A stretch of DNA of 64,000 bases. It comes from Escherichia phage vB_EcoM_EC001. The stretch lies in the sequence record MN445185.1. The stretch is one strand, 5' to 3'. Shown in pieces: positions 11,605-63,197 of this stretch. The notes under the pieces are model-generated. The model ran no database searches, had not been told where the DNA came from, and saw only the letters and a program-made list of their open reading frames with translations. Every line of letters begins with the position of its first letter. The first letter of the stretch is position 1. A program made the position numbers and the translations under genes.

Positions 11605-11613
11605 ATAAAAGTA

Positions 11614-26720: not shown

Positions 26721-26746
26721 ATTTCAGATATATATTACCTAGGTGA
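26721..26746 (+). promoter_or_regulatory. phage promoter-like motif, class I (ATTTCAGATATATATTACCTAGGTGA)
   Basis: 26/26 identical to 35839..35864; just downstream of a terminator, 43 nt before ATG 26789. Confidence 0.6.
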
Positions 26747-35717: not shown

Positions 35718-35828
35718 CCCTCTAAACGCACTCACAACCTTCTAAAGCCTCTCTAACGGTAGAACGACCCTCTAAAGTGATAAAAGCTCTCAAAACGCGT
35801 TTGAGAGCGTTATAGAGGGTATACTCTG
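35718..35828 (+). repeat. array of CCCTCTAAA(G)-like direct repeats plus near-palindrome CTCTCAAAACGCGTTTGAGAG
   Basis: Copies at 35718, 35738, 35748, 35768; palindrome 35787..35807; inverted TATAGAGGGTATA at 35811. Confidence 0.6.
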
Positions 35829-35838
35829 AATAAAAATA

Positions 35839-35864
35839 ATTTCAGATATATATTACCTAGGTGA
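35839..35864 (+). promoter_or_regulatory. phage promoter-like motif, class I (ATTTCAGATATATATTACCTAGGTGA)
   Basis: Identical to 26721..26746; 52 nt upstream of ATG 35916. Confidence 0.6.
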
Positions 35865-36481: not shown

Positions 36482-36904
36482 ATGAAAATGATTAATGAGA
36501 AGCTCCAAAAGTATTTAAAGAACGACACTGACTGGATGGTTCTTGACCAGTACGGACGATTTGTTCCGCTATCCAAGGATTCCCCTATACCCCGTGACAA
36601 GGCGATTTATATTCCTGACGGTAAGGGTGGCTATCGTTTCTGGGAAGGCCAGGAAGTAAAAGAGGAAATGTTCTACATGGAGCCGAAGTTCCGTGCAGCG
36701 TTCCCATCGAAAAATATTAACGGATATGTTTACAACGCAATTCCGCCAATCACGCATCCTAACTTTGAGGTTGTGAACTACCCCGCAACTGTTCTGGATT
36801 GGCAACGTGCCATTAGTGAACACTACACGATTCCGCTTGAAGGTGTTTACTTCCCATTCCGTGATATTAGTTTAGATGACTTTATTAACTCTCTTAAGGA
36901 CTAA
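36482..36904 (+). CDS. hypothetical protein (140 aa)
   Basis: CTAAGGAA SD then ATG 36482; the track start 36407 is a GTG inside the upstream gene and terminator. Confidence 0.65.
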   Translation: MKMINEKLQKYLKNDTDWMVLDQYGRFVPLSKDSPIPRDKAIYIPDGKGGYRFWEGQEVKEEMFYMEPKFRAAFPSKNINGYVYNAIPPITHPNFEVVNYPATVLDWQRAISEHYTIPLEGVYFPFRDISLDDFINSLKD

Positions 36905-36908
36905 AAAA

Positions 36909-37769
36909 ATGTACAGCATTACTGATTTTATCAAAAGTTCAGATTTCCCCCTACCTCCAGACCACGAAGTATTGGCTAGCGATCCGTTAACCGATGCGGC
37001 CATTGTCCAGCTGGACCGTGACAAACGTCGTACTTACGTCGTGTTGGTCGAAGGAAAGAGCTACGGCCTGTCTTCTTACGACCTGGAGCAGCAAGAGCGC
37101 TTCCTCGATGAAAACCGCAAAACGTCAATGTATAGCGCTATCTCGCGCGCGTTGTGCAAGGTAATGGCGACGATCACGGACAGCAAAAAGCGCGTCGCCG
37201 TGCTACAGGGTATCAATGCGCTAACGACCAAAATCCAACAACTTGAAGGTTTCCATTGCCCACGATTGGAAGCCGCACAGAAGGATGCTAAGGGTGATGA
37301 GGCCATGGTGCTGTTTGGAGGCAATACTGTCTTTGCAACAGCTGAAGCTTGTTATCTCACCTATCCAACCTTTAACTATACGCCAATCAGCGACACCGTA
37401 GACGGGATTAAAGTAGAGAACGTCGTGCAATGGGGTCGCGCAAATCTCAAGTTTGTGATGTCCCATGAAGAAGAAAATCAAGACGGCCTTGGCCAGAAGA
37501 TTCAACGTTGGTTCACGGCACGTTTGGACGCCGACTGGGAAGCGCATGTTAACGCACAGCTTCGTAAATTTCACGCGGTGGTCGCATTGTTAAAAGAAAA
37601 TACTCCTGCCCCGAAACAATCGAAGGCACCGGTGGTTGGCTGGACGTGTTCCGGCTGTAACCGCAACCATGTCGCCACAGTACCGAGAACCCATCGCTAC
37701 ACTTCGCAGACGATGAACATTGCTTGTCCGGCTTGCGGCAAGATCAACGAAGTTGATTATAAACCGTAG
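36909..37769 (+). CDS. hypothetical protein with C-terminal zinc-ribbon-like CxxC...CxxC (286 aa)
   Basis: AAGGA SD; motifs CSGCN and CPACGK near the C-terminus. Confidence 0.7.
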   Translation: MYSITDFIKSSDFPLPPDHEVLASDPLTDAAIVQLDRDKRRTYVVLVEGKSYGLSSYDLEQQERFLDENRKTSMYSAISRALCKVMATITDSKKRVAVLQGINALTTKIQQLEGFHCPRLEAAQKDAKGDEAMVLFGGNTVFATAEACYLTYPTFNYTPISDTVDGIKVENVVQWGRANLKFVMSHEEENQDGLGQKIQRWFTARLDADWEAHVNAQLRKFHAVVALLKENTPAPKQSKAPVVGWTCSGCNRNHVATVPRTHRYTSQTMNIACPACGKINEVDYKP

Positions 37770-37776
37770 TAGTACC

Positions 37777-37815
37777 CCCTCTTACCTTCGGGTAAGAGGG
37801 TTTTATATTTATTTT
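37777..37815 (+). terminator. rho-independent terminator
   Basis: CCCTCTTACC-TTCG-GGTAAGAGGG hairpin then T-rich run. Confidence 0.8.
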
Positions 37816-37857
37816 CCGAAAAGAAAATAAAAGGCGCTCTCTCCCGAAGGAGAGAGC
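37816..37857 (-). terminator. probable minus-strand rho-independent terminator
   Basis: GCTCTCTCC/GGAGAGAGC hairpin whose loop reads UUCG and whose U-run follows only on the minus strand. Confidence 0.55.
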
Positions 37858-37883
37858 TTATTCACATCCACTTAGAGGTTAAC

Positions 37884-38030
37884 ATGAATACCTTTATGCA
37901 ACAACTGCGTCAGCAACAGCTGAAACAAGTCGCTTTTCAACAACGTCTGCAAGAGGTTACCCGCCAACCGCAGACTTCCACCCGTACCATTAAAGGACTA
38001 GGAGGTGAGATAATACTCAACAAGAGATAA
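37884..38030 (+). CDS. possible small Gln-rich protein (48 aa)
   Basis: AGAGG SD 5 nt upstream; lies between convergent terminators, so possibly non-coding. Confidence 0.3.
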   Translation: MNTFMQQLRQQQLKQVAFQQRLQEVTRQPQTSTRTIKGLGGEIILNKR

Positions 38031-38175
38031 CATGAATATTTGCATGGACTAACTGTACCCGAGTGTTCACAGCACTCGGGTTATTCCATGCATATAAATA
38101 GTTCGTCGTATTTTTTTTTGATCTTGGCAGGACGCATAAACTGCCCGTAGGGGAGCTTAGGCTCCCCAGTGTTCG

Positions 38176-39738
38176 TTAGAACAAATCATCACCCATTCCA
38201 CCGGTGAAGAAGTTGATAGACGACGCTGTTACGGTTTCTTCTTTATCACAATCCCAAGGCAGGATGCCAACATCCTGGAAAGGTATCACTGTGTAGTGAT
38301 AAGATTCTTTAGTATCGATAATGGTGCGGTGCTTACCGCGTTGAACTTCTAAGAAGCTATGGCCGTTGACCACACGCTTGTTAAAATACATTTCACCATC
38401 GGCCTCGTTATCAAGGCTCGAACAACTATCGTAAAGACCACGACCAGGTAAGTTCTTACAGAAACCTACCGGGTCTAACGCTTTTAAGCGCTTACCTTCT
38501 GGGGAAATCTGGTGTGGGGCAATTAAGAACCCACGGTTGCGTACCACTTGGATGTTACGAGCAATACGATAAATTTCTTTGATATCACTCCCGGCAATAC
38601 CGTTGCCGTGTCCTGCTTTGCTGATTGTGCCTAAGTAGTCTGCGCGAATGCCAACAACATGATAACCGCGACGACGTAAGTCGAGAATAAGGTCGTTGAT
38701 GTAGTGCACTTTAAAATCGGAGTTGGTGTGCTTTTGGAAAACGTAGTCCCAACCGTTTGCGCGAATCTTACCACAGAGGTAATCAGACATTGCTGTTGTG
38801 TGTGCTAACTTCTCTTCAGCGGTTGCATCCTGTGCAATGGTCATCTGTGGAACTTGTCCTTCAAAATGACCGTACAGTGCTTGATAGCCGTAAGCTAAGT
38901 TAACGTCGAGTTCGTTTTCTAAACTCAAGTCAAGAATAATTGGTTGCAGTGTGCCCTTCACATCCGCCATTACTTTCTCAGGCGTGTTGAAGATAGGAAT
39001 CGACAAGCTCAGTAAGAGACTGAACAAAGACTTACAGTTAAAAGGTAACGCCGGCATTAGCCACAGTTCTTCGGTAATCCCTTTGTTACAACCGAGCATT
39101 TGGTTAATGGCTTTCCAGCCCGTCTGCAAACCATTACCTGCTGCTTTCTTGTTAATCGAGTCGAACACTTTAACAAACGGAGCCCGATTATCTGTAACCA
39201 GCTCACCGACCAGCGATGGAATCTTATTATGAGAGCGTTCACCGAACGTAGATAGCGCCTCTTTGAGTTCGAGCACTGCGGTGTTCAGATCAACACGTGT
39301 CTCAGTTCCATTCAATGCTCCGAACGCGCGACCCATTTTTGTTTTGAGTTCGACGCTCTGTAAACATTGACGTAATTGGAAATAATATTGAGACAGTTGT
39401 CGATTAAGATGCTCGGTACGTTTGTCTTCTTCCTCGGGCAAATCGTCTTCGAGGAATTTGGTAATCGTATCGTATAGAGGACGTACTTGAGTGGTGGCCA
39501 GCTTCAAGCGCTTCATAACGCTCGCGTGGTCGTATTCCATGCCGCCGTCTATGATAGATGTGATAATGTCCTTGATCTCGATGAGTGCAAAGCGCTCTTC
39601 GCCATCTTCCGCATATTCCGGAAGCTTGATCTGCATCAGAACTTTTCTTATGACATCATGATCCTTGCTAGGGTCCGTCAGCATAGATTCTGTATACAGT
39701 GCGGCTAAGGCGGTTATCAACATCATTTTACTATTCAT
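38176..39738 (-). CDS. hypothetical protein (520 aa)
   Basis: Long ORF; AAGGA SD on minus strand; hydrophobic N-terminus. Confidence 0.75.
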   Translation of the reverse strand: MNSKMMLITALAALYTESMLTDPSKDHDVIRKVLMQIKLPEYAEDGEERFALIEIKDIITSIIDGGMEYDHASVMKRLKLATTQVRPLYDTITKFLEDDLPEEEDKRTEHLNRQLSQYYFQLRQCLQSVELKTKMGRAFGALNGTETRVDLNTAVLELKEALSTFGERSHNKIPSLVGELVTDNRAPFVKVFDSINKKAAGNGLQTGWKAINQMLGCNKGITEELWLMPALPFNCKSLFSLLLSLSIPIFNTPEKVMADVKGTLQPIILDLSLENELDVNLAYGYQALYGHFEGQVPQMTIAQDATAEEKLAHTTAMSDYLCGKIRANGWDYVFQKHTNSDFKVHYINDLILDLRRRGYHVVGIRADYLGTISKAGHGNGIAGSDIKEIYRIARNIQVVRNRGFLIAPHQISPEGKRLKALDPVGFCKNLPGRGLYDSCSSLDNEADGEMYFNKRVVNGHSFLEVQRGKHRTIIDTKESYHYTVIPFQDVGILPWDCDKEETVTASSINFFTGGMGDDLF

Positions 39739-39752
39739 GGAGCATCCTTAAA

Positions 39753-40277
39753 ATGCAAATTCGTTTTAGTCCACCGTGGGAAGTTCAATCTAACATAGAT
39801 AAAGGGGCTGGCGTTAAAAAGTTGGAGGAACTCCAAGCAAGCTTCTTTAACTGGTTATATGACTGCTCGTCGGGCTTTAGTTCCATCATACTGCCAGTGA
39901 GTGACCCTATTTCGATTTATAAATCGATTATGGCACCACCTGCACTTCCGACTCTTTATTATGACCAGGTCTTAAACCTGGTTGAGAAAGGTACGAATGA
40001 AACCCTTGCTGATTTATATGGGGAATCATTCGACGGTCGTTTACGTTGGGTGTTCTCACAACGTGGCGATGTTGTTGTGGCGTCTTTTGCAGAAGCTAAA
40101 TCCGGACCGGGTTTTTCTTTAAGTGAAGACCACGCTGCGAAAAAGATGTTCTGCGCAGAACTTTTTAAATATATGCGTCCCAAGACTCGTGTCGTGGATG
40201 ATACGTTCAGTACGTCGACGCAGTTTGCTGCGCACGAAGTGCTGACGCAGTTGTACGCATGTCATTTATCTAAATAA
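39753..40277 (+). CDS. hypothetical protein (174 aa)
   Basis: ATG 39753 is 14 bp from the divergent minus-strand start; the track start 39699 overlaps that gene. Confidence 0.65.
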   Translation: MQIRFSPPWEVQSNIDKGAGVKKLEELQASFFNWLYDCSSGFSSIILPVSDPISIYKSIMAPPALPTLYYDQVLNLVEKGTNETLADLYGESFDGRLRWVFSQRGDVVVASFAEAKSGPGFSLSEDHAAKKMFCAELFKYMRPKTRVVDDTFSTSTQFAAHEVLTQLYACHLSK

Positions 40278-42670: not shown

Positions 42671-42693
42671 AGATAGATATTATCTTAGGGAGA
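42671..42693 (+). promoter_or_regulatory. phage promoter-like motif, class II (AGATAGATATTATCTTAGGGAGA)
   Basis: Related copies at 42869 and 63176; directly downstream of a terminator. Confidence 0.6.
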
Positions 42694-42725: not shown

Positions 42726-42809
42726 ATGGAAGTCAATTTAGAGAGATCAAGACTAGTTGCACCGATGTTTGATGGGCGCGGTTTTATGGCGAACGGTCAC
42801 CACGTTTGA
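42726..42809 (+). CDS. possible leader peptide (27 aa)
   Basis: TAAGGAGA SD 6 nt upstream; sits between two promoter motifs and is followed by a hairpin. Confidence 0.3.
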   Translation: MEVNLERSRLVAPMFDGRGFMANGHHV

Positions 42810-42868: not shown

Positions 42869-42889
42869 AGATAGATATTATCTACGTGA
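42869..42889 (+). promoter_or_regulatory. phage promoter-like motif, class II variant (AGATAGATATTATCTACGTGA)
   Basis: 15/15 identical core with 42671; 33 nt upstream of ATG 42923. Confidence 0.55.
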
Positions 42890-48088: not shown

Positions 48089-48148
48089 AAAAAGAAAAGG
48101 TACCTCTCCCCGAAGGGAGAGGTAAACCTTATTTCTTTTTCTTTTTTT
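48089..48148. terminator. bidirectional rho-independent terminator between convergent genes
   Basis: TACCTCTCCC/GGGAGAGGTA hairpin flanked by A-run and T-run. Confidence 0.85.
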
Positions 48149-63174: not shown

Positions 63175-63175
63175 G

Positions 63176-63197
63176 GATAGATGTTATCTTAGGGAGA
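63176..63197 (+). promoter_or_regulatory. phage promoter-like motif, class II (GATAGATGTTATCTTAGGGAGA)
   Basis: 21/23 identical to 42671..42693; abuts the terminator T-run; 95 nt upstream of ATG 63292. Confidence 0.55.

What the first reader, a model, noticed from the sequence alone, without database searches (positions are those of the whole stretch)
37816..38175. Unexplained 360-bp zone between convergent transcription units
A plus-strand terminator (37777) is followed by a hairpin that is a terminator only on the minus strand (37816..37857), implying the minus gene 38176..39738 has a long 3' tail. The zone holds a 48-aa Gln-rich ORF with an SD, a hairpin at 38058..38080 and a T9 run at 38111. 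It could encode a small protein, a small RNA or a structured 3' UTR.
Basis: seen in the sequence. Interest (0 to 1): 0.4.

Follow-up and report, generated by a model that had tools for sequence, protein, structure and literature searches.

The report
Small phage gene between facing terminators
The "unexplained" 360-bp zone of this SPN3US-like giant Salmonella phage holds a real, conserved and already annotated 48-residue protein gene of unknown function, wedged between strand-specific terminator hairpins, so the neighbouring helicase message probably runs antisense across it; it is ordinary rather than new.

Summary

The window is an SPN3US-like jumbo phage (Seoulvirus, about 97% identical to SPFM4 and SEGD1). 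The ORF (37884-38030) is a genuine gene:
- It is the SPN3US gp71/gp72 family, PHROG 18219 (E 1.5e-26).
- It is annotated as "hypothetical protein" in relatives.
- It is always 47-49 aa and always sits between the gp70-like gene and the convergent DnaB-like helicase.
- dN/dS is 0.08-0.58 with synonymous sites saturated.
- No homologue has a known function. It is basic (pI 11.8), with a predicted helix followed by a beta-hairpin.

Loops, wobble pairs and tails assign the hairpins to strands:
- HP1 is a plus-strand terminator.
- HP2 is a minus-strand terminator.
- HP4 is the 3' hairpin of the helicase mRNA and has no U tail.
- HP3 is probably plus-strand.

No other minus-strand terminator lies between the helicase and HP2. 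The helicase message therefore most likely has a 3' tail of about 340 nt, antisense to the small gene. This is inferred, not shown.

A minus-strand TATG is invariant across relatives, which leaves room for a separate antisense RNA.

Verdict: a known gene family in a standard kind of architecture. Interest is low.

The parts
37777..37816 (+). HP1, the plus-strand intrinsic terminator. It is a 10-bp stem with a C(UUCG)G loop (37777-37800) plus a U-rich tail. It ends the gp66-gp70 operon, whose last gene stops at 37769.
   Evidence: Found by the terminator scan. In relatives, every non-Watson-Crick pair is G.U on the plus strand (7 taxa, at least 4 positions) and never A.C. The loop is TTCG on the plus strand in all taxa. 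98.8% of cells pair and 9 of 10 pairs change on both sides.
37808..37831 (.). AT-rich inverted repeat TTTATTTTC-CGAAAA-GAAAATAAA. It consists of the two U-tails of HP1 (plus) and HP2 (minus) placed face to face.
   Evidence: It is conserved in all relatives that carry the cassette. It explains the spurious miRNA-like Rfam hits, all of which fall below their thresholds.
37816..37857 (-). HP2, the minus-strand intrinsic terminator. It is a 9-bp stem at 37836-37857 whose loop reads UUCG on the minus strand, followed on that strand by GCCUUUUAUUUUCUUUU.
   Evidence: The loop is CGAA on the plus strand (UUCG on the minus) in 9 of 16 loci (5 of 11 distinct HP2 sequences). The only non-Watson-Crick pair is A.C on the plus strand, which is G.U on the minus strand (4 taxa). 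The ATAAAAGG box upstream of the hairpin matches the box at other junctions where a minus-strand gene ends.
37874..37878 (+). Shine-Dalgarno sequence AGAGG, five bases before the ATG.
   Evidence: GAGG, GGAG or AGG lies 5-10 nt upstream of the start codon in all relatives.
37884..38030 (+). Small protein gene of 48 aa, a member of the SPN3US gp71/gp72 family (PHROG 18219). The protein is basic (pI 11.8, net charge +6). The predicted structure is a helix at residues 2-25, a linker, and a beta-hairpin at 34-45 that carries the invariant KGLGG(D/E)I motif.
38057..38081 (+). HP3, a 9-bp hairpin 27 nt after the ORF stop codon. Probably the 3' hairpin of the small-gene mRNA. It has no adjacent U tract on either strand.
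   Evidence: 100% pairing, with 6 of 9 pairs changed on both sides. One G.U pair falls on the plus strand, in L152. The loop is inverted between relatives.
38091..38094 (-). Invariant CATA, which reads TATG on the minus strand. It lies 18-19 nt from the start of the 3' arm of HP3. It is a candidate phiKZ-type (T-3 A T G+1) start site for an antisense RNA.
   Evidence: Invariant in 11 distinct sequences within an otherwise variable spacer. It is one of only two minus-strand TATG in all intergenic DNA of the window. Its function as a promoter has not been tested.
38111..38119 (+). T9 run. Probably the plus-strand termination tract for the small-gene transcript, inherited from the ancestral single terminator.
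   Evidence: 12 of the 13 T>=7 runs in the window are intergenic, and 11 of these follow a GC hairpin within 0-21 nt. This run is the longest and lies 29 nt from HP3. In phiEaH2, which lacks the cassette, the same T9 follows the single terminator hairpin.
38130..38141 (-). Conserved element GGACGCATAAAC, which reads GTTTATGCGTCC on the minus strand and contains a second TATG. It lies between HP4 and the A9 run. Its role is unknown.
   Evidence: The core GAC(G/A)CATAA is kept in most relatives, including phages without the small gene (phiEaH2, L013-L020, L024). It occurs only once in the window.
38150..38167 (-). HP4, a 7-bp hairpin 8 nt after the helicase stop codon. It is the 3' hairpin of the helicase mRNA and is not a canonical terminator, because no U tract follows it.
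   Evidence: 100% pairing, with 6 of 7 pairs changed on both sides. The loop reads UUCG on the minus strand in most relatives.
38176..39738 (-). DnaB-like replicative helicase gene (the SPN3US gp73 orthologue). Its transcript is the probable source of minus-strand RNA across the zone.
   Evidence: PHROG 3213, E 4.5e-201; Pfam divDNAB PF20307, E 1.2e-124.
39794..39819 (-). Candidate phiKZ-middle-type promoter of the helicase, TTTTAACG-N14-TATG. The predicted start is the G at 39794, 55 nt upstream of the ATG.
   Evidence: Conserved at the same distance in 11 of 14 related loci, while the N14 spacer varies. The motif class is enriched in the window (5 exact copies against 0.77 expected).
35844..35864 (+). 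Early-promoter-like 21-mer AGATATATATTACCTAGGTGA. It lies ahead of the gp66-gp70 operon, which ends at HP1.
   Evidence: Five copies in the window against 0.02 expected. All are on the plus strand and intergenic.

Best explanation
The zone is an accessory small-gene cassette lodged inside a convergent terminator junction of an SPN3US-like jumbo phage.

Shown:
- The 48-aa ORF is a real protein-coding gene of the gp71/gp72 family.
- Four hairpins flank it and are maintained by compensatory changes.
- HP1 carries the signature of a plus-strand RNA terminator. HP2 carries the signature of a minus-strand RNA terminator. HP4 looks like a minus-strand RNA hairpin without a U tail.

Inferred:
- The early gp66-gp70 operon (promoter-like motif at 35844) mostly stops at HP1.
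- No promoter motif of either recognisable class lies between HP1 and the ATG. The small gene is therefore translated from its own Shine-Dalgarno site on transcripts that read through HP1. These transcripts end at HP3 and the T9 run.
- The helicase is transcribed on the minus strand from a middle-type promoter (TTTTAACG-N14-TATG). Its transcript passes HP4 and meets no U tract until HP2. This gives a 3' UTR of about 340 nt (38175 down to about 37830), fully antisense to the small gene.
- The overlap would let middle-phase helicase transcription damp expression of the small protein, by RNA duplex formation or polymerase collision. This last step is speculative.

The protein itself is small, very basic and hydrophilic, a helix followed by a beta-hairpin. 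I take it to bind a nucleic acid or an acidic partner, but there is no homology to support any specific function.
For: Gene:
- Full-length match to PHROG 18219, E 1.5e-26.
- Annotated as a coding sequence in SPN3US (SPN3US_0071 and 0072), SPFM4, SPAsTU, pEa_SNUABM_29, Machina, Huxley and others.
- 31 strong homologues, all but one 47-49 aa (one 44-aa form), and only on contigs of jumbo-phage size or their fragments.
- dN/dS is 0.08-0.58 with pS up to 0.9, and the length is preserved.
- The five other reading frames carry stop codons in most taxa.
- The Shine-Dalgarno site is conserved.
- Synteny between the gp70-like gene and the helicase holds in every locus.

Hairpins:
- Folding z-scores run from -4.8 to -6.3.
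- Covariation supports HP1, HP3 and HP4.

Strand assignment:
- HP1 has G.U pairs on the plus strand in 7 taxa, a UUCG loop on the plus strand, and a U tail on the plus strand.
- HP2 has its G.U pair on the minus strand in 4 taxa, a UUCG loop on the minus strand in 9 of 16 loci, and a U tail on the minus strand.

HP2 as the helicase terminator:
- Between 37858 and 38175 the plus strand has no A run of 5 or more. The minus strand therefore has no U tract there.
- The ATAAAAGG-plus-hairpin layout matches the minus-strand halves of the terminators at 11605 and 17052; 48089 carries a related A-rich box.
- In the L149 and L022 lineage, HP4 is followed by a separate canonical minus-strand terminator. 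HP4 alone is therefore not treated as a terminator.

Promoters:
- Early-like motif, 5 copies.
- Middle-like motif, 5 copies, plus the helicase copy conserved in 11 of 14 loci.
- Neither class occurs inside the zone.

Background from phiKZ: convergent gene pairs there have paired, oppositely oriented termination sites 23-183 nt apart, and defined antisense RNAs exist (PMC10914365).
Against: - No transcript, 3'-end or proteomic data could be found for this phage group. The one proteomics paper is not held in the library.
- Termination rules for the phage's own RNA polymerases are not established, so HP4 might stop the helicase transcript despite lacking a U tract.
- Read-through of HP1 is assumed only because no promoter motif was recognised. 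Late promoters of this phage group are too short to find by sequence.
- In the L149 and L022 lineage the helicase has its own terminator, yet HP2 is retained. This fits an internal antisense promoter at least as well as it fits read-through.
- The evidence that HP2 is minus-strand specific rests partly on one inherited wobble pair.
- The proposed regulatory consequence of the overlap has no direct support.
Confidence: 0.6

Rival explanations
1. A separate cis-antisense RNA is made inside the cassette. The phage non-virion RNA polymerase would start at the conserved minus-strand TATG (G at 38091). The RNA would begin with HP3 as a 5' stem-loop, run antisense over the small gene, and stop at HP2, giving about 260 nt. 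It would control the small protein's mRNA. A second TATG (G at 38135) next to HP4 could likewise start a short RNA. In phiEaH2-like phages that RNA would be only about 75 nt.
For: - CATA is invariant in 11 distinct sequences, at a fixed 18-19 nt from the 3' arm of HP3, inside an otherwise variable spacer.
- The only two minus-strand TATG in the 2,853 nt of intergenic DNA in the window are these two. Minus-strand TATG is depleted overall (73 against 171).
- phiKZ late promoters need only T-3 A T G+1 plus undefined downstream sequence (PMC4666361; PMC7598289).
- The L149 and L022 lineage ends the helicase with its own terminator but still keeps HP2.
- Defined antisense RNAs and short intergenic RNAs are known in phiKZ and 201phi2-1.
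Against: - TATG is a 4-mer. In phiKZ it is necessary but not sufficient.
- The upstream element of the middle class (TTACR-N14-TATG), which is enriched in this window, is not present at the right spacing. The window has ATACG-N12, and this is not conserved in Machina, pEa29 or L148.
- Intergenic plus-strand TATG is not enriched in this phage (2.8 per kb against 2.7 per kb overall). It is therefore unproven that TATG marks transcription starts here.
- The second TATG is lost in the L022, L023 and L025 lineage.
Confidence: 0.2
2. There is no functional antisense overlap. The helicase mRNA ends or is processed at HP4. HP2 is only an insulator or back-up terminator, or a protective 5' stem-loop of a small-gene mRNA that starts in the AT-rich spacer. 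The layout would simply be the scar left when a small gene, with its own flanking hairpins, was inserted into a single bidirectional terminator.
For: - Phages without the cassette (phiEaH2, L013, L018, L020, L024) have one bidirectional hairpin followed by the same T9, GACGCATAA element and HP4. The cassette therefore looks like an insertion or deletion unit.
- It also varies in copy number: SPN3US has two tandem paralogues. The window gene is gp71-like up to the KGLGG-coding stretch and gp72-like after it.
- HP2 is followed on the plus strand by CTTATTC, which resembles the hairpin-plus-TTAT terminator motif of phiKZ.
Against: - HP4 has no U tract in any lineage, and in L149 and L022 it is followed by a separate canonical terminator.
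- HP2 keeps minus-strand-specific features (UUCG loop, G.U pair, U tail) across three genera. That would not be needed for a plus-strand 5' stem-loop.
- No early or middle promoter motif is found in the spacer.
Confidence: 0.17
3. The ORF is not translated, and the zone acts only as RNA, either a small RNA or a structured 3' UTR.
For: The ORF is short, Gln-rich and flanked by strong structures. Nothing in Pfam, NCBIfam or the PDB matches it.
Against: - Length is fixed at 47-49 aa while synonymous sites are saturated, and dN/dS is well below 1.
- The KGLGG(D/E)I and QxQR(V/L) motifs are invariant across sequences that are 40-50% identical.
- The Shine-Dalgarno site and start codon are conserved.
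- All other frames are closed.
- No Rfam family reaches its threshold, and there is no tRNA or tmRNA.
Confidence: 0.03

Closest known systems
SPN3US gp71/gp72 (SPN3US_0071, SPN3US_0072; RefSeq ACQ60_gp195 and gp194), which is PHROG 18219, 'unknown function'
   Same: - Same protein family: 92% identity to gp71 and 46% to gp72.
- Same length.
- Same position, between gp70 and the helicase gp73.
- Identical protein annotated in SPFM phages and SaP7; the identical ORF is also present but unannotated in SEGD1 and JN03.
   Different: SPN3US carries two tandem paralogues. The window carries one gene that is gp71-like at the 5' end and gp72-like from the KGLGG codons onward, including HP3. This is consistent with unequal recombination between the paralogues. 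No function has been published for either paralogue. They are not mentioned in the SPN3US genetics papers that could be read.
Paired or bidirectional intrinsic terminators between convergent genes, as mapped in phiKZ (six overlapping bidirectional termination regions; PMC10914365)
   Same: GC-rich hairpins with UUCG-type loops and U-rich tails on the appropriate strand, lying between convergent transcription units. The two oppositely oriented signals HP1 and HP2 are 36 nt apart.
   Different: The minus-strand terminator lies on the far side of an intervening plus-strand gene. The 3' UTR of the minus-strand gene would therefore be about 340 nt and would cover a whole gene in antisense. In phiKZ most 3' UTRs are under 100 nt. 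Termination has not been measured here.
phiKZ-type promoters: late T-3 A T G+1, and middle AAanTTACc at about -24 (Yakunina et al. 2015, PMC4666361)
   Same: The window contains an enriched bipartite motif, WWWTTACR-N14-TATG, including one copy ahead of the helicase. The zone has two conserved minus-strand TATG.
   Different: The two TATG in the zone lack the upstream element at the right spacing. No transcription start sites are known for any SPN3US-like phage.
Type I toxin-antitoxin and other cis-antisense-controlled small-protein genes
   Same: A protein gene of fewer than 50 codons, completely overlapped by a probable antisense transcript.
   Different: The protein is hydrophilic and highly basic (GRAVY -0.87, pI 11.8) with no membrane helix. 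The antisense partner is most simply a 3' UTR. There is no evidence of toxicity.

Membership tests
PHROG 18219 / SPN3US gp71-gp72 small-protein family | Full-length match to the family profile | tested here: met
   E 1.5e-26, 93 bits, residues 1-48 aligned to profile positions 1-48 of 48.
PHROG 18219 / SPN3US gp71-gp72 small-protein family | Length of 47-49 aa with the conserved Q-R-(V/L) and KGLGG(D/E)I motifs | tested here: met
   Q20, R21, K37, G38, L39, G41, I43 and K47 are invariant in 21 sequences. The window protein has all of them.
PHROG 18219 / SPN3US gp71-gp72 small-protein family | Position between the gp70-like gene and the convergent DnaB-like helicase | tested here: met
   Holds in all annotated relatives and metagenomic contigs examined.
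Protein-coding gene (as opposed to a chance ORF) | Purifying selection and a preserved reading frame across diverged relatives | tested here: met
   dN/dS 0.08-0.58. The other five frames carry stops in most taxa.
Protein-coding gene (as opposed to a chance ORF) | Detection of the protein | not testable with these tools
   The SPN3US infection proteomics paper is not held in the library.
Intrinsic (factor-independent) terminator | GC-rich stem-loop directly followed by a U tract on the transcribed strand | tested here: met
   Met for HP1 on the plus strand and HP2 on the minus strand. Not met for HP3 (nearest T run is 29 nt away) or for HP4 (no U tract on the minus strand).
Intrinsic (factor-independent) terminator | Transcripts actually end there | not testable with these tools
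   No 3'-end mapping data were found for SPN3US-like phages.
phiKZ-type late promoter | TATG with transcription starting at the G | tested here: inconclusive
   The TATG motif is present and invariant on the minus strand (38094-38091). The start site cannot be tested. In phiKZ the motif alone is not sufficient.
phiKZ-type middle promoter | AAanTTACc-like element about 24 nt upstream of a TATG start | tested here: not met
   Inside the zone there is only ATACG-N12-TATG, and it is not conserved in other genera. The feature is met, with one mismatch, for the helicase promoter outside the zone.
Early (virion RNA polymerase) promoter of this phage | 21-mer AGATAKATATTAYCTWSGKGA | tested here: not met
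   Five copies in the window and none in 37770-38175, even allowing 3 mismatches.
Any described RNA family (Rfam 15), tRNA or tmRNA | Score at or above the family's gathering threshold | tested here: not met
   The best hit is 26.8 bits against a threshold of 88. It is a miRNA model that matches the HP1-spacer-HP2 palindrome on both strands. ARAGORN finds nothing.
Type I toxin-antitoxin | Small hydrophobic or membrane-active toxin | tested here: not met
   GRAVY -0.87, net charge +6. The model is a helix plus beta-hairpin with no hydrophobic segment.

The most novel reading that the evidence does not exclude
The cassette is a self-contained sense/antisense module conserved across several genera of nucleus-forming jumbo phages. 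In this reading, a minimal TATG promoter of the phage's own non-virion RNA polymerase drives an antisense RNA of about 260 nt. That RNA starts with HP3 and ends at HP2, and it times or limits synthesis of a very basic 48-residue protein. The protein would act on the adjacent replication machinery, for example the DnaB-like helicase next to which it is always found.
Probability: 0.15. Interest if true: 0.5.

Novelty: already known. Interest (0 to 1): 0.22.

Why it matters
The main value is housekeeping: a zone flagged as unexplained turns out to be an annotated small gene plus terminators.

Two modest points go beyond that:
- The strand-specific hairpin signatures, together with the promoter and terminator grammar found in the window, give a testable transcription map for a phage group that has no published transcriptome. 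That grammar comprises an early 21-mer, a TTACR-N14-TATG middle motif, and hairpins followed by T7-9 runs.
- The gp71/gp72 family is a clean example of a conserved, very basic micro-protein. It is confined to SPN3US-like jumbo phages, varies in copy number, and is probably overlapped by antisense RNA. This makes it a convenient target for the antisense-oligomer or amber-mutant genetics already in use for these phages.

Tried and rejected
- Rfam scan of 37000-39000 at E up to 10: only sub-threshold miRNA-like hits on the HP1-spacer-HP2 palindrome.
- ARAGORN: nothing.
- AT-rich spacer as a repeated promoter motif: not repeated in the window.
- GGACGCATAAAC, and the T-run-plus-GACRCATAA combination, as a repeated motif: unique to this site.
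- Resemblance of GCATAAACTGCCCGTAGGGGA to the early 21-mer (12 of 21 by eye): rejected, because the TAGGGGA part belongs to the HP4 stem and is not conserved in Machina-like phages.
- CTTATTCACAT downstream of HP2 as a repeated element: no enrichment.
- Function by homology: nothing found.
  - Pfam: only a 0.053 coiled-coil-like hit.
  - NCBIfam: none.
  - PDB profile search: best E 0.83.
  - BFVD fold search: only a family member.
  - Exhaustive HMMER search of 1.84 billion representatives: only the family's own three clusters plus Q-rich low-complexity hits.
- Back-translated KGLGGEI pattern against metagenome contigs: too degenerate. Of 120 loci, only one (L034, identical to the window) was relevant.
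- The 36-aa TTG ORF at 38040-38150 and the 31-aa antisense ORF at 37872-37967: rejected. The first spans HP3 and the T9 run and is broken by indels in relatives. Antisense frames carry stops in most taxa.
- Extra 250 nt in L149: no convincing ORF.
- Literature: no transcriptome for SPN3US-like phages, and no mention of gp71 or gp72.
Full report
**Identity of the window.** BLAST of 37700-38300 against phage genomes gives about 97% identity to Salmonella phages SPFM4, SEGD1 and JN03. It gives about 94% to SPN3US, 79% to SPAsTU and 76% to Erwinia phage pEa_SNUABM_29. The window is therefore an SPN3US-like, phiKZ-related jumbo phage of the genus Seoulvirus. The genes around the zone are:
- the orthologue of SPN3US gp70 (36876-37769, plus strand), an essential non-virion protein according to PMC5105663;
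- a DnaB-like helicase, the gp73 orthologue (38176-39738, minus strand; PHROG 3213 E 4.5e-201, Pfam divDNAB E 1.2e-124);
- gp74 and the major capsid protein gp75 downstream.

**Check of the observation.**
- HP1 at 37777-37800, followed by a T-rich tail.
- HP2 at 37836-37857, whose U-rich tail exists only on the minus strand.
- A 48-aa ORF with 11 Gln at 37884-38030, with AGAGG five bases upstream.
- HP3 at 38057-38081.
- T9 at 38111-38119.
- I add HP4 at 38150-38167, 8 nt beyond the helicase stop codon.

Both halves of the zone fold much better than dinucleotide shuffles on both strands, with z-scores from -4.8 to -6.3 and 0 of 200 shuffles as stable. The zone stands out in the window. The other three convergent junctions (11604/11654, 17050/17094, 48088/48151) are 43-62 nt long with one bidirectional hairpin. 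Here the stop codons are 406 nt apart.

**The ORF is a real gene and is already annotated.**
- It matches PHROG 18219 ('unknown function') over its full length, E 1.5e-26.
- It is annotated as a hypothetical protein in SPN3US (SPN3US_0071), SPFM4, SPAsTU, pEa_SNUABM_29, pSal-SNUABM-04, Huxley, Machina and pEa_SNUABM_43.
- A profile search of 5.8 billion proteins finds 31 strong members. All but one are 47-49 aa (one is a 44-aa form), and all come from jumbo-phage-sized contigs or their fragments.
- An exhaustive HMMER search of 1.84 billion representatives finds only the family's own three clusters.
- Every contig examined has the same order of gp70-like gene, small gene and convergent helicase.
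- Pairwise Nei-Gojobori estimates give dN/dS of 0.08-0.58, with synonymous differences up to saturation (pS 0.4-0.9) and no frame disruption.
- The other five frames contain stop codons in most taxa.
- A GAGG, GGAG or AGG box precedes the start codon in all taxa.
- Invariant residues are M1, Q20, R21, K37, G38, L39, G41, I43 and K47, that is QxQR(V/L) and KGLGG(D/E)I.
- A weaker, C-terminally different relative of 53-56 aa occupies the same place in another metagenomic lineage (L015-L017).

**What the protein looks like.**
- It has pI 11.8, net charge +6 and GRAVY -0.87.
- AlphaFold2 with the 21-sequence alignment gives a helix at 2-25, a low-confidence linker, and a beta-hairpin at 34-45 around the GG turn. 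Mean pLDDT is 67.
- Nothing informative was found in Pfam, NCBIfam, PDB sequences or BFVD folds.
- Function therefore cannot be read from homology. A small basic protein of this shape most plausibly binds nucleic acid or an acidic partner, but that is only an inference.

**Copy number.** SPN3US, the SPLA phages, Proteus phage 7 and MET_P1_082_240 carry two tandem paralogues, gp71 and gp72, which are 46% identical. The window and the SPFM and SEGD1 group carry one. The window gene is identical or nearly identical to gp71 up to the GGACTAGGAGGTGA that encodes KGLGG. From there on, including HP3, it follows gp72. This is consistent with unequal recombination between the paralogues. Erskinevirus (phiEaH2) and several other lineages lack the gene altogether. 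They have one bidirectional hairpin followed by the same T9, the same GACGCATAA element and the same HP4. The gene with HP2 and HP3 thus behaves as an accessory cassette inserted into, or deleted from, a single terminator.

**Hairpins and strands.** Covariation is strong:
- HP1: 98.8% of cells paired, 9 of 10 pairs changed on both sides.
- HP3: 100% paired, 6 of 9 pairs changed on both sides.
- HP4: 100% paired, 6 of 7 pairs changed on both sides.

All far exceed the shuffled and slid controls. One caveat applies: I extracted each hairpin by position, so the percentage paired is partly by construction.

Strand assignment comes from features that exist only in RNA of one strand:
- HP1 has a C(UUCG)G loop on the plus strand in all taxa. 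Every non-Watson-Crick pair is G.U on the plus strand (7 taxa, at least 4 positions). The U tail is on the plus strand.
- HP2 reads C(UUCG)G on the minus strand in 9 of 16 loci. Its only non-Watson-Crick pair is A.C on the plus strand, which is G.U on the minus strand (4 taxa, probably one event). Its tail (CCUUUUAUUUUC) is on the minus strand. The ATAAAAGG box before the hairpin recurs at the junctions at 11605 and 17052 where a minus-strand gene ends; the junction at 48089 carries a related A-rich box.
- HP4 reads UUCG on the minus strand in most lineages and never has a U tract.
- HP3 has one G.U on the plus strand (L152) and no U tract on either side.
- The loops of HP3 and HP4 are exact reverse complements between relatives (CTGTAA/TTACAG, TTAG/CTAA). 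This is the flip-flop expected of palindromes and tells nothing about strand.

**Promoter and terminator grammar of the window.**
- A 21-mer, AGATAKATATTAYCTWSGKGA, occurs five times (0.02 expected). All copies are on the plus strand, intergenic and just after terminators. This fits the AT-rich early promoter class of RNA-polymerase-encoding jumbo phages (PMC7598289). The copy at 35844 precedes the gp66-gp70 operon that ends at HP1.
- A bipartite motif, WWWTTACR-N14-TATG, occurs five times exactly (0.77 expected), all on the plus strand. It resembles the phiKZ middle element AAanTTACc at -24 combined with the TATG start (PMC4666361).
- A one-mismatch copy, TTTTAACG-N14-TATG, lies on the minus strand 55 nt upstream of the helicase ATG. 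It is conserved in 11 of 14 related loci while its spacer varies. The helicase is therefore probably a middle gene.
- Neither motif occurs in the zone.
- Twelve of the 13 T>=7 runs on the plus strand are intergenic, and 11 of these follow a GC hairpin within 0-21 nt. The T9 at 38111 is the longest and the only one without an adjacent hairpin.

**Most likely working of the zone.**
- HP1 stops most early transcription from 35844.
- The small gene has no recognisable promoter of its own, so it is translated from read-through transcripts that end at HP3 and T9.
- The helicase transcript passes HP4. The plus strand between 37858 and 38175 has no A run of 5 or more, so the transcript meets no U tract until HP2.
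- The result is a 3' UTR of about 340 nt, antisense to the whole small gene.
- In the L149 and L022 lineage a canonical minus-strand terminator follows HP4, which indicates that HP4 itself is not the terminator.
- The overlap could let middle-phase helicase transcription reduce small-protein expression. That step is speculative.

My confidence by step is as follows:

| Step | Confidence |
|---|---|
| The gene is real | about 0.95 |
| HP2 is a minus-strand terminator | about 0.8 |
| The helicase 3' UTR reaches HP2 | about 0.6 |
| The overlap is regulatory | about 0.3 |

**Rival: an independent antisense RNA.**
- CATA at 38091-38094, which reads TATG on the minus strand, is invariant in 11 distinct sequences. 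It sits at a fixed 18-19 nt from the 3' arm of HP3, in an otherwise variable spacer.
- A second TATG sits in the conserved GTTTATGCGTCC next to HP4.
- These are the only minus-strand TATG in all 2,853 nt of intergenic DNA in the window. Minus-strand TATG is depleted overall, 73 against 171.
- The L149 and L022 lineage keeps HP2 although its helicase has its own terminator.
- Against this rival, TATG alone is insufficient in phiKZ. The upstream middle element is absent or mis-spaced and not conserved. TATG is not enriched in plus-strand intergenic DNA. The second TATG is lost in one lineage.
- I give this rival about 0.2.

**What remains unexplained.** The element T8-10, then 5-8 nt, then GAC(G/A)CATAA, then 5-9 nt, then HP4 is conserved next to the helicase stop codon in nearly all relatives, with or without the cassette. 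It is unique in the window. It may be a 3' UTR element of the helicase mRNA, a start site for a short RNA, or the remnant tail of the ancestral plus-strand terminator. I could not discriminate between these.

**Comparison with what is known, and verdict.**
- The gene is a member of an already catalogued family of unknown function, SPN3US gp71/gp72 (PHROG 18219).
- The hairpins are ordinary intrinsic-terminator-type elements. Paired, oppositely oriented termination sites between convergent genes, and defined antisense RNAs, have been mapped in phiKZ (PMC10914365).
- The only unusual aspect is that the minus-strand terminator sits beyond an intervening plus-strand gene.
- No transcriptome or mention of gp71 or gp72 was found for this phage group. 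The one relevant proteomics paper is not held in the library.
- The finding is real but ordinary, and I score interest at 0.22.

Noticed in passing
window 26726-26746, 35844-35864, 42671-42691, 42869-42889, 63175-63195 (+): A 21-mer, AGATAKATATTAYCTWSGKGA, occurs five times against 0.02 expected. All copies are on the plus strand, intergenic and just after terminators. It is very likely the early (virion RNA polymerase) promoter consensus of this phage group.
   Followed up: partly
window 27554, 34447, 34822, 42824, 63208 (+) and 39819-39794 (-): A bipartite motif, WWWTTACR-N14-TATG, occurs five times exactly against 0.77 expected. It resembles phiKZ middle promoters. A one-mismatch copy lies 55 nt upstream of the helicase ATG and is conserved in 11 of 14 related loci, although it sits inside the coding sequence of the divergent gene gp74.
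   Followed up: partly
window, whole (T>=7 runs listed): 12 of the 13 T>=7 runs on the plus strand are intergenic, and 11 of these follow a GC hairpin (often with a UUCG loop) within 0-21 nt. A typical form is cTTTC-T7-G. This is a distinctive terminator grammar in which the T run can sit well away from the stem.
   Followed up: partly
window, whole: TATG occurs 171 times on the plus strand, which carries most genes, but only 73 times on the minus strand. This could reflect codon usage, or selection against spurious antisense starts by a TATG-recognising polymerase.
   Followed up: no
window 38111-38167; L009 (phiEaH2), L012-L020, L024: The element T8-10 ... GAC(G/A)CATAA ... hairpin next to the helicase stop codon is conserved even in phages that lack the small gene. 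It is unique in the window and its role is unknown.
   Followed up: partly
window 38066-38072 and 38157-38160, compared with L001, L003, L004, L008: The loops of HP3 and HP4 are exact reverse complements between close relatives (CTGTAA against TTACAG; TTAG against CTAA). The loops of these palindromes therefore flip during evolution.
   Followed up: no
L001 1684-2089 (SPN3US) compared with window 37884-38110: The small gene varies in copy number. SPN3US-type genomes have two tandem paralogues, and SPFM- and SEGD1-type genomes have one hybrid gene with the junction in the KGLGG-coding stretch. Erskinevirus and several other lineages have none.
   Followed up: yes
window 35780-35808 (+): ATAAAAG followed by the hairpin CTCTCAAA-CGCG-TTTGAGAG looks like a minus-strand terminator. 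It lies in an intergenic region flanked only by plus-strand genes, just upstream of the early promoter motif at 35844.
   Followed up: no
window 42726-42809 (+): A 27-aa ORF (MEVNLERSRLVAPMFDGRGFMANGHHV) with a strong AAGGAG site lies between the two early-promoter motifs downstream of the major capsid gene. It may be another unannotated micro-gene or a leader.
   Followed up: no
L149 1351-1750 and L022 (pEa_SNUABM_11-like lineage): About 250 nt of extra sequence lies between the T run and the helicase. It has its own minus-strand UUCG terminator (ACCCTGCC-CGAA-GGCAGGGT preceded by an A-rich run) and further hairpins. No convincing ORF was found in it.
   Followed up: partly
window 36876-37769 (+), residues about 254-293: The gp70 orthologue is essential and non-virion in SPN3US. 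It ends in a CxxC...CxxC zinc-ribbon-like segment with a weak match to PHROG 6417, 'translational regulator' (E 0.0021).
   Followed up: no
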